From Trypanosoma brucei (lineage: Eukaryota): a stretch of DNA of 64,000 nucleotides. Below are positions 35,701 to 62,700 of the stretch, piece by piece (within the stretch, counting starts at the first letter, position 1; the number at the start of each line of letters is the position of its first letter). Position numbers: made by a program. Location of the stretch: assembly GCA_000002445.1 (NCBI GenBank), contig CP000071.1, positions 64,001-128,000 of the forward strand, given 5' to 3'.

Positions 35701-38700
35701 CAAGAAGAACATAAAAGTGGATGCAATAGACGTAACCGATACGCTGTTAAACACCGTGAAAGGCAACCAAGCAGAGCAAATCAGTGCGTACACGGAAGCT
35801 TGAAACTTGAAAAGAAGCGTCAAAACAGCGACAATCACAGCGGAAAGAGAAACAACAAATTCCCAAAAGAAGAAATATAAATCAATAACAAACAAAGAAA
35901 AATCAAAAGAGAATACGGGTGTGAATTAAAAGGTTATATTTGCGTGTAAAAAGAGGGGGCTAAAGTGTAAAGAACAGAAAATAAGGGAAACACCGCAGAA
36001 AAAAATTCTGATGTAGTTACAATTCCTTTATTGCTTCTATAATTATTTTTCTCAAAGATTTTGCTTATTTTTTCAATTTTATGCAAATTTTCTACTTTGA
36101 AAAAATCTGATAAGGTTTCATGAAATTTAATATTTTTTAACACTTTTGAAAATCTTTTCAAAATGTGAAGACTTTAAAACTAGGAAATTTTTGTTTCAAA
36201 TTTTCCTGAGAGTTTAAAGTGGTTTGATAAAAGTGAAAATTGTGTGCTAGTCTAAATTTGTTTAATTTCGTGGGTATTAGGAGTAATTTAGGGTTGCCAT
36301 AATAATAATAATAGGAGTGTGTTGTAAGAGTGTATATACGAATATTATTATAACAAAATTAATAATAATAATAATAACGATAATGATAGTGATAGTGATT
36401 GGAGAGTGTTGTGAGTGTGTATATACTAATCTTGTAATGAGAGTTTTGCGTACAGAAATAAACTCCAAAATAGAGGAACTTAAAATAATTGAAAGTGATC
36501 AACGGGAGCAAGTAGGTTTTCGAGAAAGGTTGAGAAAAGAAAAGGAGACGAAATGTGTTTAGATTCAAGCAACAATACGACGATGCTCATCATTATACAC
36601 AAAGAGATGATGGAGGGTTAATACGAAAGAGACAATGTACAAACCTAGTGGAGTCACAGCGTTACTCAATCCACCACCATCACAGAAAGTTGTGATATAT
36701 AAGTATTATCAAGAAAAAATTGGATTTCATATCTCACTATATAATGGATATATTCTTTTCAGAGATGACTGCAGCAGCAGCAGGAGTGGTTCTAAACGCT
36801 ACGCTGATGGAAGTCTTGTGATCGAAACCGTGATGGTTGTGGTAGTTATCACTAGTAACTGGTAAACTTCTGAGCATATCTGAACTAATCAATGCAAAAA
36901 GATACTTCCATTAACATAACTATACATAGGGGTGAAATGTGAAGAATACAATAAATGAGTTGAATTCCTCTAGCGTGCTCTGCACCAGCTGTTGCTAATC
37001 ATGACTTCTAAAACAAAAGACTGTAGATGCTTGCTCAAAGGTAAGCTGAACACACTAAGAATGCATTTTTCAGCAGATACATCATAACAATATAAAGGCG
37101 ATACTTATGTATATAAAACCGTTTCTTAACTAAACAGCTTAGTAGTACATCTGGCTTATTTTCCTTGAGTTTTCTACGTTTTTTCTAATAACAGCCTAAA
37201 ATTATAAAGGTATATTAGGCAATAAAGTTAAGTATATTGAGAAATTTACTACTACCGTTGTTATTACATTGGGTATTTAAGTACAGTATCTCTTGAAAGT
37301 GAGAAAGTAAATAACATAAACAATGTGTCAGTGAATGATACTAAGAAACCAATAGTGTTTGTAGTTGTAGCTCAAACTCATGCACCTCAAGGATGGTGCA
37401 GGCTCATATTGAGTGTCAAACTAAGTAATGTTGAAACTATTACAGTTGAAATGGGAGGTTTGTATAGTCATGTTAAAAGGACTAGATGGGTTATGGAATA
37501 TATAGAAAAACAGAATGCAAGTGATGAGGATATTGTAATAACTGTTGATGGATCTGATGTTATTGTTACTGATCGTGATATATATGAAAATTCTGTGGAA
37601 TATTTTATGCAAAATACTGCTGAAAATGAAGAGAGTTTTAGTGAAGATGAAATAGTGAAGGAAAATCAAGTTTCACCGATTCAGTTTATAACAACTGCTG
37701 ATTGTACTGCAACTCAGTTGGACGTCATAGTTTATTCGGTCCACAAAGAACATACAGAACGCTGTCGATGGTTTTTGGAGATGGTAAGCACGATAAAAGA
37801 AGAGAAAGGTCCACCATCTCTACTTAAATTTCCAGAAACTGGCAAGCCTTATCTCGGGGGCGGTAATTTAATAGCACGAGTGTGGGCATTTAAGAGGTTT
37901 AAAGCCACCTTTAATGAATTAATTGGAGTGGAGGATGCATAGTGGTCAAAGCAGAGTATTTACATTTCCTTGCGATTGTGGGGTGTGAAGAAGGAAAGCA
38001 AAGTCGGCTGTATATTCGTTTCGCAAAGGGGGCTGATAGGATTAGATTACGACGAGCGGTTTTTCTCAGTCCATTACAAAATTTCGTTGGGAAACCCTGC
38101 GTTCCTTCACTTTCCAGGGCATCCACTTGCATAGAATGCTAAACCGAAATTAATTTAGAAAACTTTTACTTGGTTCAAGAATTTGTAAGGAAAGCATTTC
38201 AGCACGACAGATTTGGGGAAAATTCAAGCTTATGCAATATCTGGAGAGAGATTAAATTTGGATTACCAAAGTGTTTGTGGAAATGCGTTTAAAGAGGGGG
38301 ATTCGTTTAAGGCTAATAAGTTGTAAAAAATAAAAGCAAAATTAACCGCTGTGAAAGTAAGTCAAGAGTATCTCCGAGCGATAAACTCTATGTTCAGAGG
38401 TGATAATCAGGGACCACTTGCGAGAAGAAGCGGCGGCCCAACCACTATATCAGCTTCAAACGGTCAAGGGAGAGCGAATTCCATGGTTTCCCAAAAAGCC
38501 ATTTTCTAAATACGAGACAGACCCGAAGATGCCTAAAAATTCAATAGCAATAGCTACAGCTCTAATTTTAGCATTCCATCCAAGCATGGCAGCTGATGGT
38601 GACGCTATTGCAGCCGCGCACGCACTGTGCCTAGCGTGGAGCGCAGCGCGTCATGGTAAAATAGTGGAAGATACAGACGTCCAGACGCCAGTTGCTTATA

Positions 38701-59700: not shown

Positions 59701-62700
59701 TCAAAAAATAATAGCGTATTACGAGGAGCCGGTTACGCACCCTATTTCGCACAGAAATAGATAGCTGCTATTGTAGGGATGACTAAAACCAGAAAATTAG
59801 CATTAGTAGCTGATAAAAACAATTGTGATGAAGATTTTACGATTAATCATACCACCTTGAGTTGTAACCGCACAAAAATAGTAAAATGATTAGTACATTT
59901 TAAACAAAATAGTAAAACTAGCTGCTGCGAATACCATAAAAATAAATAGACAGAAAATATTAAGACTAAAAAAAAGCATTTTCCCTTTAGTATTCAACGT
60001 TAGTTGCTACTGAAGTTAACTTCTAAAAGAATAACTGCAGCTGAATGATCAAATAAAAACTACACATAATGTGCATACAGCCTTCCACACATACATCATA
60101 AAAGTATAAAAGCATTACTTCTACGTGTAGAAAAGTATTCTTTAAATAACACCTTAGTGATATTAGCAACCTTTTCCATAAAATATATAGAATTTTCTTA
60201 TAAACCTAACAAATTTAAAAGGCATACTGTGGTATGAAATTTGGTATCATGAGAACATTACTGTCACTGTTACTACTACATTTAGTGTGTTTAAGACCAA
60301 TATCTATACAAGGTGAAACAGCAGCTATTTAAACGGAAAATTATACTAAGAAACCAAGAGCGTTTTTTGTTGCAGTTCAACCTCATACAACGAAAGGATG
60401 GTGTAGGCTCATATTGAGTGCCAAACTAAGCAATGTTGAAATTATTACAATTGCAATTAGAGGTTTGTATAGCCATTTTAAAATACCTATATGGGTTATA
60501 GAATTTTTAGAAAGACAGAATTCAAGTTATGAGGATATTGTAATTCATTTGGACGGATCTGATGTTATTGTTTCTGACGGAGGTAAATATGAAACTGCTG
60601 TGGAATATTTTATACAAAATAGTGCAGAAAATGAAGATAAATTTAAAGAAGAGGAAATTCATAAAGATCATGTAGAGAGTTGCTATTGGTTTTTTAATGT
60701 TGGTTACCAAAAAGAGGAGGATAAAAACTTACATCAGTTGCTTAAAATACCTCGTAGTGGCAAACCTTGTCTTAGTGGTGGAAGTTTAATGGCAAGAGTT
60801 TGGGCATTTGAGAAATTTGAATATTCATTTGGAGAATTGCTTAAAGAAAGTGATAAGTAGTGGTCGGGACAGAGTATCTATACGCCATTGCTAATATGAA
60901 GTGCAATTCAAGAGGAAGCTGTTGGGCAGCGATTTGTGTTGAGAAGAGGAATGATTGCATTGGATTATGAGGAGAGATTTTTTACTATTCCTAGTAGTGG
61001 GGTGATTGGACAAGCTCCATTCATTCATTTTCCAGGTCATCCTATTGCGTGGGAGGAGAAAGCGAAGTTAATTGTTAAAAATCTTACTTGGTATAAAGAG
61101 TTGAAAGGAAGACAATTTAATTCGAAGGATATGGGGAAAGTAGAAACTTATGCAGTGTTATCAGAGAAAAATTGGACTTTAAATATTGTAATGTTTGTGG
61201 AAAGTCGTTTGACCAAGGTGGTTTTTTTAAGTCTAAGAAGCTTTAAATCTAACAAAAACACGCATATAATGAGCAGTAGAGTTTTTTAAAAGATCAGAAC
61301 ATTGTTATATGCCTGCATAAACTGGTCGGAGCACTAAAGGTGCAGCAATAACAGGCGCTTAATAATGCAAACCCCAAAGTCCACAGCACACTAGGAAATA
61401 ATAAGAAAAGCATGCACACCACCACCGTGCTACAGGTAATAGCGCTGCTACTGAGCCAGAGAAAAGCAGCGGCAGTAGCAGCAGGAGACAATGAACATCA
61501 TTTTTTGGATCTATGTGCTCTAATTGCCCTAACACAGCGACCAATACCAGAGCTCCCAGAAACACAGCAGGCCACAACAGATTATCAAGAGATACAGAAA
61601 CTGAACATCTCTCTAAGTGGCACAGACTGGCGAAAGCAGTTTGACAAGACGGGAACTCCGCCTAAGCGAGCAGCCTATAAACCATCTGGAGCTACCGAAG
61701 ACAGCCTGAGAAAGGAACGGCGGCCATACTGGATAAACGCGGAAGATGAAATAGAAACAGACAAAGGGCCGGAAAAAATTCTAAGATCCGCAGGGGCAGA
61801 CGGCGCAACGCAGGCAGACAGACAGCGACTGTTGGCTTTGTTGCAGCCGATTGCGGAGGCAGCAGCATCAACTTTCACTGAAATCGAAAATTTAAAACAA
61901 GCGTCAAAAGCTCTAACTGCAGCAGCAATCCACAAAAAGATTCAAACAGCCACATACGGAGAACAAGCAACGGCAGCAGCGGACTTGACAGCAGCCGTTT
62001 TCAAAGCAGCGAACGGCAACCCTACAAACCGAAAAGAACTCTGCGGCGACACAACGTCGGCTTCAGCTAAAGCAAGAACGCTAACCGCCTTTTTGTACTG
62101 TATTTGCGCGGGCGAACAGTCGCAAAACGCCGGCGGATTCAAGGCATGCAGCAATGCCCAGCCTGCGAATGCTGACGCGCAAGCCGCCTTAACAAATGTC
62201 CATACGGCCATACAAGGGCTAATAAACGTATGTCCGGAACCAGGAAATGACAAAGTAACACCCGACGACATAACAAAGCTGATAGCAGCGGTAGCAGGCA
62301 AGACGACAAGCAAAGCCCAGCAAGCTTTTTACGGCACTTTCGCGGCAACCGACTGCGGAGGACTGTCAGGCAGCGGATTGTGTGTTTACTACAAGACGAC
62401 CACCAAGGCGGACAGCAAAGCGTATCACAACATACAGTGGAAAAAACAGCTCAGCGACGCCGCCAATGACCTCCGGGATCAACAGTTAGCGACTCAGCGG
62501 CTACAAGGCTTGCTTCTGCAATTAAAGTCCCTAAAGAAACAGGCCTACAACCTCAGGCCTCAGCTAGAGATTTACAAAAAACTACAGGTAACAGCGGGCA
62601 AGTCAGGCACAACACAAGAAGCGCAGGCCAAAAAAGGAGACGACTGCAAACAGCACACAAAAAACGCGACCTGCACAGAAAATAACTGCAAATGGAAAGC

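What the first reader, a model, noticed from the sequence alone, without database searches (positions are those of the whole stretch)
37325..61289. Three-copy paralogous ORF family in a fixed position (70-bp repeat, about 1 kb, ORF, about 150-400 bp, VSG)
Copies at 37325-38133, 41100-42006 and 60345-61289 are co-linear over about 300 codons (GWCRLILS.KLSNVE.IT..GLYSH.K...WV.E..E.QN.S.EDIVI.(V/L)DGSDVIV(T/S)D..YE..VEYF.QN(T/S)AENE..F.E.EI....GG.L.ARVWAF..F..DYEERF......G....APFIHF.G..I.WE...KLIVK.L.WY.EL.G..F). All carry stops or frameshifts. Each sits immediately upstream of a B-type-like VSG, two of which (42153 and 61412) are the sister pair above. This suggests the duplicated unit is '70-bp repeat, ORF, VSG' rather than the VSG alone. 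I suspect the family is ESAG3-related (ESAG3 pseudogenes are known to litter VSG arrays), but I cannot confirm the identity from memory.
Basis: partly seen in the sequence, partly recalled or inferred. Interest (0 to 1): 0.5.

Follow-up and report, generated by a model that had tools for sequence, protein, structure and literature searches.

The report
Dead ESAG3 genes upstream of VSGs
These are three decayed copies of the trypanosome ESAG3 glucosyltransferase gene, each lying between a 70-bp repeat and a class-B surface-antigen (VSG) gene in the Trypanosoma brucei reference genome; this is a real arrangement but one already described.

Summary
The window has exactly three ESAG3-like loci: 37222-38326, 41018-42006 and 60234-61246. 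They are 57-68% identical in protein to expression-site ESAG3 (tblastn E 1e-96 to 1e-148). All three are pseudogenes. Each lies 680-850 nt downstream of a 70-bp-repeat relic and 146-202 nt upstream of a Pfam VSG_B gene.

So is the glycosyltransferase guess: DGSD is the D110-x-x-D113 metal-binding motif of ESAG3, which a 2026 preprint reports as a GT-A fold, Mn2+-dependent UDP-glucose O-glucosyltransferase acting on class-B VSGs. My family profile and AlphaFold model both match the LH3/PLOD3 GT domain (E about 1e-9).

The "duplicated unit" idea is only partly supported. Similarity among the three units stops at the ESAG3 stop codon. The VSGs are 0-32% identical, so the "sister pair" is not close. 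However, copy 3 shares its exact 87-nt deletion with an ESAG3 pseudogene in T. b. equiperdum that also sits upstream of a VSG 40% identical to VSG 61412.

The window is T. b. brucei TREU927. ESAG3 pseudogenes in subtelomeric arrays, and ESAG3 pseudogenes 3' of the 70-bp repeats in BES7 (VSG3) and BES15 (VSG11), are already published. Verdict: already known, low interest.

The parts
36299..36444 (+). 70-bp-repeat relic (about two units) that opens cassette 1
   Evidence: blastn-short against a 70-bp consensus, E 8e-15. The conserved core GGAGAGTGTTGTGAGTGTGTATATAC aligns in all three units.
36445..37221 (+). Spacer between the 70-bp relic and ESAG3 pseudogene 1. Only the last 220 nt or so (37004-37221) are clearly homologous among the copies.
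   Evidence: Alignment A2 has 65% mean identity. blastn finds only 37004-37143 against 60019-60158, and there are no matches to other cassettes in the window. The nhmmer hit starts at 37008.
37222..38326 (+). ESAG3 pseudogene c1. It is full length without the internal deletion. ATG is changed to ATA, there is a 2-nt frameshift in the signal peptide, and there are 4 in-frame stops (W241 TAG, W305, about 312, about 322). D110/D113 and H297 are retained; E244 is K.
   Evidence: tblastn against P0001: 57% identity over residues 25-368, E 5e-133. Start and stop equivalents.
38529..40019 (+). Class-B VSG pseudogene V1 (497 codons, 2 in-frame stops), 202 nt downstream of c1
   Evidence: Pfam VSG_B and Trypan_glycop_C hits on its two ORFs. 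In-frame translation.
40280..40339 (+). Degenerate 70-bp-repeat relic that opens cassette 2
   Evidence: Matches 59330-59386 at 78%. The conserved core aligns in A2.
41018..42006 (+). ESAG3 pseudogene c2. ATG is changed to ATA, and a TAA falls at the second codon position. There are 7 in-frame stops within the ESAG3-aligned region (W59, about K93, about R119, W184, W222, W242 and W254), a frameshift at about 41585/41596, and a deletion of about 34 codons (around residues 146-178). DGSD has become DGYD.
   Evidence: tblastn as two HSPs in frames +3 and +1, combined E 1e-96. Alignment; codon states.
42153..43676 (+). Intact class-B VSG ORF V2 (507 aa), 146 nt downstream of c2
   Evidence: Pfam VSG_B E 1e-61 and Trypan_glycop_C E 6e-15.
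59328..59387 (+). 70-bp-repeat relic that opens cassette 3
   Evidence: blastn-short E 3e-8. 89% identity to 36299-36353.
60234..61246 (+). ESAG3 pseudogene c3, the least decayed copy. ATG and the signal peptide MKFGIMRTLL are kept. There are stops at about codon 35, W241 (TAG) and W254 (TGA), a 29-codon (87-nt) deletion of residues 146-174, and a frameshift at about 61170. DGSD is intact.
   Evidence: tblastn: 68% identity over residues 1-345, E 3e-148, plus a frame +2 tail at 61166-61243. The deletion boundaries are identical to those in T. b. equiperdum L001.
61412..62989 (+). Intact class-B VSG ORF V3 (525 aa), 165 nt downstream of c3. It is identical to an annotated TREU927 VSG.
   Evidence: Pfam VSG_B E 7e-74. 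100% identical to P0016, 'VSG, atypical, putative [T. b. brucei TREU927]'.

Best explanation
The three ORF remnants are dead copies of ESAG3, the expression-site-associated GT-A O-glucosyltransferase of Trypanosoma brucei. They lie inside a silent subtelomeric VSG array of the TREU927 reference genome.

Each copy forms most of the upstream flank of one class-B VSG cassette. The layout is: 70-bp-repeat relic, 0.7-0.85 kb spacer, ESAG3 pseudogene, 0.15-0.2 kb, VSG.

None of them can make enzyme. All have multiple stops and frameshifts. Two have lost the start codon. Two lack residues 146-174, which include a core beta-strand and a nearly invariant cysteine.

**Shown:**
- the identity of the copies as ESAG3;
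- their decay;
- their fixed position in the cassette;
- the GT-A fold of the parent protein;
- the existence of at least two old pseudogene lineages, one undeleted (c1) and one deleted (c2, c3 and a T. b. equiperdum copy).

**Inferred:**
- The cassette type arose long ago, when an ESAG3 copy came to lie next to a VSG downstream of a 70-bp repeat.
- It has since been copied passively by the duplications and gene conversions that build VSG arrays, while the VSG part was diversified or exchanged.
- When such a VSG is copied into an expression site with the 5' boundary in the 70-bp repeat, the pseudogene travels with it. This would account for the ESAG3 pseudogenes seen 3' of the 70-bp repeats in BES7 (VSG3) and BES15 (VSG11).

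Any present-day role would be as roughly 1.1 kb of extra recombination homology, not as a gene.
For: **Identity.** tblastn gives E 1e-96 to 1e-148 and 57-68% identity to ESAG3 proteins from bloodstream expression sites (BES).

**Pseudogene status.** Stops, frameshifts and the deletion are documented. The deleted segment covers strand E154-159 of the AF2 model and the nearly invariant C162.

**Parent protein is a GT-A enzyme.**

**Fixed layout.**

**Array location rather than an expression site.**
- V3 is an annotated TREU927 VSG on a 2.48-Mb record.
- The window holds about 14 cassettes headed by 70-bp repeats, all on one strand.
- There are no telomere repeats.

**Old lineages.**
- Each pseudogene is closer to BES ESAG3 (57-66% aa) than to any other pseudogene (44-57%), and c2, c3 and the T. 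b. equiperdum copy cluster together.
- c3 and the T. b. equiperdum copy have identical deletion boundaries.
- That copy is followed about 190 nt later by a VSG_B pseudogene whose best window match is V3, at 40% identity.
- A T. b. gambiense copy lies about 970 nt downstream of a 70-bp relic.

**Literature.**
[quoted passage not shown] PMC3871602 says the same.
- 'ESAG3 psi 3' of 70-bp repeat' is recorded in BES7/VSG 427-3, and two ESAG3 pseudogenes in BES15/VSG 427-11 (PMC2567434).
Against: **The co-duplication step is not directly visible in this window.**
- The VSG N-terminal domains are 0-32% identical.
- The ESAG3-to-VSG intergenic DNA is unalignable.

**Divergence along the pseudogenes is mosaic.**
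- The 5' third differs by about 20% in all pairs, evenly across codon positions.
- The 3' half differs by 44-56% at third positions but only 24-37% at first and second positions.
- This implies gene conversion or a mixed history, so a simple tree of cassettes does not apply.

**The shared stops are weak evidence.** W241 TAG (c1 and c3) and W254 TGA (c2 and c3) are single G-to-A changes in Trp codons and conflict with each other as markers.

**The class-B link is not fully consistent.** The T. b. gambiense copy is not followed by a recognisable class-B VSG.

**Not tested.** I could not test transcription or any recombination role.
Confidence: 0.85

Rival explanations
1. The conserved module is only '70-bp repeat, spacer, ESAG3 pseudogene'. 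The VSGs downstream are unrelated genes placed there by separate gene conversions or recombinations whose 5' boundary falls just after the ESAG3 stop. On this view the unit that duplicates does not include the VSG.
For: - Similarity among the three units ends at the ESAG3 stop codon, and the intergenic DNA is unalignable.
- V1 and V2 have no blastp hit; V1-V3 are 25% identical and V2-V3 are 32%.
- The pseudogenes are 66-73% identical in DNA, far more than neutral co-divergence with the VSGs would leave.
- Mosaic divergence within the pseudogenes shows that conversion is active here.
Against: - The deletion lineage (c2, c3 and the T. b. equiperdum copy) is linked to VSGs that are each other's best matches: V2-V3 at 32%, and the T. 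b. equiperdum VSG to V3 at 40%.
- Every downstream VSG that could be classified is class B: 4 of 4 here, plus VSG3 and VSG11 in the literature.
- The ESAG3-to-VSG spacing is nearly constant, at 146-202 nt.
Confidence: 0.25
2. The ESAG3 remnants are kept because they serve as DNA. They would provide about 1.1 kb of homology to the ESAG3 copies in expression sites and so offer an alternative upstream recombination anchor when these VSGs are activated or when expression sites are remodelled.
For: - The 5' third (codons about 57-145) is 80-92% identical in all pairs, against 45-79% for the rest.
- Hertz-Fowler et al. note that recombination breakpoints in expression sites coincide with ESAG3 loci and that ESAG3 copies do not cluster by position (PMC2567434).
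- Jackson et al. report that ESAG3 is the one ESAG family that is not monophyletic between expression-site and other loci (PMC3605285).
- The HL/TV polymorphism just before DGSD is shared between BES alleles and the pseudogenes.
Against: - The conserved 5' third shows equal change at all three codon positions. That fits recent homogenisation by conversion as well as it fits selection.
- Four other class-B VSG loci in the window lack the element, so a silent class-B VSG locus can exist in the array without it.
- There are no functional data.
Confidence: 0.12
3. One or more copies still encode a working or truncated ESAG3-like protein, for example from the 205-codon ORF 37325-37942.
For: - The longest ORF (37325-37942) retains the DGSD motif.
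- c3 keeps its ATG and signal peptide.
Against: - Every copy has at least 3 in-frame stops.
- The 205-codon ORF starts at GTG, lacks a signal peptide, and ends before W242, E244/Q245 and H297. W242 is experimentally required for activity, and E244/Q245 and H297 are the other conserved active-site residues.
- c2 and c3 lack a core beta-strand.
- The loci lie in a silent array with no expression-site features.
Confidence: 0.02

Closest known systems
Expression-site ESAG3 of T. brucei (for example Q26748/AAA63784 and CAQ57304; 368 aa)
   Same: The copies are colinear with it over the whole length at 57-68% amino-acid identity. The D110-x-x-D113 motif (DGSD), the Gly-rich loop and the H297 region are recognisable in the conceptual translations.
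   Different: [quoted passage not shown]
ESAG3 pseudogenes 3' of the 70-bp repeats in Lister 427 BES7 (VSG 427-3 = VSG3) and BES15 (VSG 427-11) (Hertz-Fowler et al. 2008, PMC2567434)
   Same: The order of elements is the same: 70-bp repeat, ESAG3 pseudogene, VSG. The linked VSGs (VSG3 and VSG11) are O-glycosylated like class-B VSGs, according to the 2026 preprint.
   Different: Those copies are telomeric, in expression sites of another strain. I had no DNA for them, so I could not compare sequence or junctions.
Subtelomeric ESAG3 pseudogenes of Fam53 (Jackson et al. 2012/2013; Abbas et al. 2018, PMC6152948)
   Same: This is the category the three copies belong to: ESAG3 sensu stricto scattered through subtelomeric loci, mostly as pseudogenes.
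   Different: None in kind. The papers I could read do not spell out the fixed position relative to the 70-bp repeat and the VSG.
GT domain of human LH3/PLOD3 (PDB 6FXR, 6WFV), a collagen glucosyltransferase
   Same: It is the closest solved fold to intact ESAG3 (Foldseek E 1e-9). The family profile aligns the DXXD motif, the GG loop, the D/E-Q pair and the C-terminal His.
   Different: Sequence identity is only about 16%. ESAG3 is a stand-alone secretory-pathway protein that the preprint reports as an 18-mer acting on VSG Ser/Thr. This resemblance concerns the parent enzyme, not the dead copies in the window.

Membership tests
ESAG3 sensu stricto (Fam53) | Full-length sequence similarity to expression-site ESAG3 | tested here: met
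   tblastn gives 57%, about 60% and 68% identity, with E 5e-133, 1e-96 and 3e-148. The only database cluster hit is ESAG3.
ESAG3 sensu stricto (Fam53) | Intact 368-codon ORF with an N-terminal signal peptide (a functional gene) | tested here: not met
   Each copy has 3 to 7 in-frame stops. All three have a frameshift, c2 and c3 have a deletion, and c1 and c2 have ATG changed to ATA. They are therefore pseudogene members of the family.
ESAG3 sensu stricto (Fam53) | [quoted passage not shown] | tested here: not met
   The window is a run of VSG cassettes headed by 70-bp repeats, with no telomere repeats. It belongs to a 2.48-Mb TREU927 chromosome record. The literature recognises array copies as part of the family.
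GT-A glycosyltransferases (PLOD/LH3-like) | Metal-binding DXD/DXXD motif at the end of a Rossmann-like beta-strand | tested here: met
   DGSD is residues 110-113 of ESAG3. It aligns to VDSYD of LH3 in the family-profile search. It follows strand E105-110 in the model. The preprint reports that D110N is inactive. Both Asp residues are retained in all three conceptual translations (DGSD, DGYD, DGSD).
GT-A glycosyltransferases (PLOD/LH3-like) | GT-A fold of the whole domain | tested here: met
   This was tested on intact ESAG3 (P0001), not on the pseudogenes. The AF2 model has pLDDT 89.5. The top 10 PDB matches are LH3 (E 1e-9 to 6e-8, probability 1.0). 12 of 43 relatives match Pfam GT_PLOD, best E 3e-10. 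P0001 alone is below the Pfam cutoff (16.5 against 27 bits).
GT-A glycosyltransferases (PLOD/LH3-like) | Catalytic activity (UDP-glucose, Mn2+) | not testable with these tools
   Reported for recombinant ESAG3 in the preprint 10.64898/2026.01.27.701950. Not expected for the window copies.
VSG cassette of the silent array | 70-bp repeat upstream, VSG ORF, conserved C-terminal domain and 3' end downstream | tested here: met
   The 70-bp relics are shown. The C-terminal and 3' regions of V2 and V3 are 80% identical over about 315 nt.

The most novel reading that the evidence does not exclude
The ESAG3 pseudogene flank may mark a particular old lineage of class-B VSG cassettes and be a fossil of an ancestral enzyme-substrate gene pair, in which the O-glucosyltransferase gene lay directly upstream of the class-B VSG type it modifies.

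Every linked VSG that could be classified is class B. That covers three in the window, one in T. b. equiperdum, and VSG3 and VSG11 in Lister 427. VSG3 and VSG11 are the reported O-glucosylated VSGs.

If true, the flank would predict which archive VSGs are ESAG3 substrates and would date the ESAG3-VSG association.

The evidence does not exclude this, but several points weaken it:
- The cases are not independent, because they share ancestry.
- Four of the seven class-B VSG loci in the window lack the flank.
- The Cys-flanked Ser/Thr loop is also present in class-B VSGs without the flank.
- One T. b. gambiense copy has no recognisable class-B VSG downstream.
Probability: 0.12. Interest if true: 0.5.

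Novelty: already known. Interest (0 to 1): 0.15.

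Why it matters
There is little new here. The window is the T. brucei TREU927 reference genome. Array ESAG3 pseudogenes are an acknowledged feature of it, and the same layout has been drawn for two Lister 427 expression sites.

The result is useful as housekeeping:
- It fixes the identity and exact extents of the three remnants.
- It corrects the "sister VSG" label.
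- It shows that the DGSD segment is the catalytic DXXD motif of what is now reported to be the VSG O-glucosyltransferase.

The one thread worth a short follow-up is the association with class-B VSGs. That has become interesting only since ESAG3 was reported as the enzyme that glucosylates class-B VSGs. It could be settled by a simple genome-wide count.

Tried and rejected
- **Pfam and PDB sequence searches with the pseudogene translations.** They gave nothing useful. The relationship to GT_PLOD/LH3 appeared only with intact ESAG3 and then with a family profile.
- **First AF2 run.** The alignment was shallow (ESAG3 alleles plus window fragments) and the run failed at pLDDT 31. It succeeded only with 43 distant relatives.
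- **The look-up of encoding contigs for the window VSGs, P0016 and P0001.** It returned nothing. I therefore could not obtain expression-site ESAG3 DNA or the BES7/BES15 ESAG3 pseudogene sequences for a junction comparison.
- **Word-indexed protein searches.** They found almost no ESAG3 relatives.
- **Shared stop codons as evidence that a dead gene was duplicated.** Rejected as weak. They are G-to-A changes in Trp codons, they are common in these copies, and the two shared stops group the copies in conflicting ways. The shared deletion is the better marker.
- **More degenerate ESAG3 remnants upstream of the other class-B VSGs.** nhmmer and permissive tblastn found none.
- **Similarity of the 70-bp-to-ESAG3 spacer to spacers of other cassettes.** None found.
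- **Classifying the ORFs downstream of the T. b. gambiense copy.** No Pfam hit even after concatenation.
- **Papers I could not read.** Marcello & Barry 2007 and Berriman et al. 2005 are not held. Whether they describe this fixed position is unchecked.
- **T. congolense locus L003.** Its file was not yet in the scripts' data folder when I ran the analysis, and I did not go back to it.

Full report

Yes. MAFFT aligns 37000-38400, 40800-42200 and 60050-61450 over about 1.3 kb with 74% mean column identity.

tblastn with an expression-site ESAG3 protein finds three loci in the 64-kb window and no others. An nhmmer profile built from the three copies recovers only 37008-38327, 40802-42007 and 60027-61250. 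A permissive tblastn adds nothing.

From start-codon equivalent to stop codon the copies are c1 37222-38326, c2 41018-42006 and c3 60234-61246.

**2. What are they?**

The conceptual translation of c3 has a single significant database match. It is a 90%-identity cluster of 15 T. brucei proteins. Twelve of them are named ESAG3 or expression site-associated protein 3; the other three carry old VSG-type names.

Identity to that protein is 57% for c1, about 60% for c2 and 68% for c3, and the match is colinear over the whole 368 residues.

All three are pseudogenes:
- c1 has ATA in place of the start codon, a 2-nt frameshift in the signal peptide and four in-frame stops.
- c2 has ATA in place of the start codon, seven in-frame stops within the ESAG3-aligned region, a frameshift near 41585/41596 and a deletion of about 34 codons.
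- c3 keeps ATG and the signal peptide. It has three stops, an 87-nt deletion (residues 146-174) and a frameshift near 61170.

**3. Where is this?**

VSG 61412-62989 is 100% identical to an annotated VSG of T. b. brucei TREU927 on a 2,481,190-bp record. The window therefore comes from the reference genome.

It contains about 14 cassettes headed by 70-bp repeats, all on the + strand. A degenerate retroelement lies on the minus strand. There are no telomere repeats.

This is a silent subtelomeric VSG array, not an expression site.

**4. Anatomy of the unit.**

Upstream of each copy lies a 70-bp-repeat relic: 36299-36444, about 40280-40339 and 59328-59387. The relics are 778, 679 and 847 nt from the ESAG3 start position.

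The spacer is only weakly alignable, apart from the last 220 nt or so before the ESAG3 start. It is not shared with other cassettes in the window.

Downstream, after 202, 146 and 165 nt, come three VSGs that match Pfam VSG_B:
- V1 38529-40019, with two in-frame stops
- V2 42153-43676
- V3 61412-62989

Four other class-B VSG loci in the window have no ESAG3 remnant: 5197-6514, 12220-13277, 30605-32170 and 54408-55829.

**5. Is the duplicated unit "70-bp repeat, ORF, VSG"?**

Only partly.

*Against a simple segmental duplication.*
- DNA similarity among the units ends at the ESAG3 stop codon, and the intergenic DNA is unalignable.
- V1 and V2 have no blastp hit. V1-V3 are 25% identical and V2-V3 are 32%, with high similarity only in the C-terminal domain.
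- The pseudogenes are 66-73% identical in DNA.
- Divergence along them is mosaic. Codons about 20-145 differ by about 20% in every pair, evenly across codon positions. The 3' half differs by 44-56% at third positions and 24-37% at first and second positions. I read this as gene conversion over an older divergence, part of which happened under coding constraint.

*In favour of an old cassette lineage.*
- Each pseudogene is closer to expression-site ESAG3 (57-66%) than to any other pseudogene (44-57%). This is expected for independent decay from a conserved ancestor.
- c2, c3 and a T. b. equiperdum copy cluster together.
- That equiperdum copy (L001, CM010678.1) has exactly the same deletion boundaries as c3. 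About 190 nt downstream of it is a VSG_B pseudogene whose best match in the window is V3, at 40% identity.
- A T. b. gambiense copy (L002) is undeleted and lies about 970 nt downstream of a 70-bp relic. What follows it could not be classified.

*Conclusion.* The layout is a recurrent, inherited cassette type. The VSG part has since been diversified or exchanged, and "sister pair" overstates the V2-V3 relationship.

**6. The glycosyltransferase idea.**

DGSD is residues 110-113 of ESAG3.

A 2026 preprint (10.64898/2026.01.27.701950) makes the following reports:
- ESAG3 is a Mn2+-dependent, UDP-glucose-specific O-glucosyltransferase.
- It modifies the Cys-flanked loop of class-B VSG3.
- It has a GT-A fold closest to LH3/PLOD3.
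- D110/D113 form the metal-binding DXXD motif, and D110N is inactive.

My own tests agree:
- Intact ESAG3 gives a sub-threshold Pfam GT_PLOD hit (E 0.005).
- 12 of 43 distant relatives found by exhaustive HMMER match GT_PLOD, best E 3e-10.
- The family profile hits the LH3 GT domain in the PDB at E 6e-10. It aligns the DXXD motif, the GG loop, the acidic-Gln pair and the C-terminal His.
- An AF2 model with pLDDT 89.5 has LH3 as its ten best PDB matches.

The deletion in c2 and c3 removes strand E154-159 and the nearly invariant C162. This confirms that those copies cannot fold.

**7. What is known already.**

The papers I could read establish three points:
- ESAG3 is the one ESAG family that is not monophyletic between expression-site and other loci (PMC3605285).
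- An "ESAG3 psi 3' of 70-bp repeat" is recorded in BES7, which holds VSG 427-3 (VSG3). Two ESAG3 pseudogenes lie with duplicated 70-bp arrays in BES15, which holds VSG 427-11 (PMC2567434).

Both the identity and the arrangement are therefore already described.

**8. Mechanism and verdict.**

The best-supported reading is that these are passive, decayed ESAG3 copies that form the upstream, co-transposed flank of one old type of class-B VSG cassette. They have no coding function.

They may serve as extra recombination homology with expression-site ESAG3. That is an inference from the conserved 5' third and from published breakpoint patterns, and it has not been shown.

One point is worth noting. 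Every linked VSG that could be classified is class B, the substrate class of the ESAG3 enzyme, and these include VSG3 and VSG11. However, the cases share ancestry. Most class-B VSGs here lack the flank. The Ser/Thr loop is not specific to flank-bearing VSGs. I rate a functional or "fossil enzyme-substrate pair" reading as unlikely but cheap to test.

Noticed in passing
window 14200-19300, minus strand: A degenerate non-LTR retrotransposon (ingi-like) interrupts the VSG array. ORF fragment 18303-18590(-) matches Pfam PF14529 Endonuclease-reverse transcriptase (E 1.5e-7). The region has many stops, and the AT skew reverses there.
   Followed up: partly
L001 (T. b. equiperdum CM010678.1:227913-248200) 9883-12136: An ESAG3 pseudogene with the same 87-nt deletion as window copy c3. 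It is truncated at its 5' end next to a VSG 3'-end fragment. About 190 nt downstream lies a VSG_B pseudogene 40% identical to window VSG 61412.
   Followed up: yes
L002 (T. b. gambiense DAL972 FN554968.1) 8477-11900: An undeleted ESAG3 pseudogene lies about 970 nt downstream of a 70-bp-repeat relic. The ORFs after it start with a signal-peptide-like sequence but match no Pfam VSG model, so the class of the linked gene is unknown.
   Followed up: partly
window 37400-37650, 41190-41440, 60430-60660 (ESAG3 codons about 57-145): This third of the pseudogenes is 80-92% identical in all pairs, with equal change at all codon positions. The 3' half is much more diverged and has a third-position excess. 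The copies therefore have a mosaic history, probably through gene conversion.
   Followed up: partly
window 1838-3268, 23463-24380, 26925-27773, 44919-45794 (and 34662-35444): These ORFs sit in cassette positions; the largest (1838-3268, 476 codons) is VSG-sized and the other three are 282-305 codons. None has a significant Pfam VSG hit. 44919-45794 and 34662-35444 are 34% identical to each other. They are presumably divergent A-type VSG genes or fragments, but this was not confirmed.
   Followed up: no
window VSGs at about codon 300-315: 38529-40019, 42153-43676, 61412-62989, 54408-55829, 5197-6514: Class-B VSGs here carry a Cys-flanked Ser/Thr-rich loop (for example TDCGGLSGSGLCVYY). It resembles the O-glucosylated VSG3 loop CTGSASEGLCVEY. 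The loop is present whether or not an ESAG3 pseudogene lies upstream.
   Followed up: partly
window 63660-64000 vs L001 18400-18737: A 340-nt stretch at the end of the window is 95% identical to a stretch in the otherwise non-orthologous T. b. equiperdum locus. It is presumably a dispersed array repeat and was not identified.
   Followed up: no
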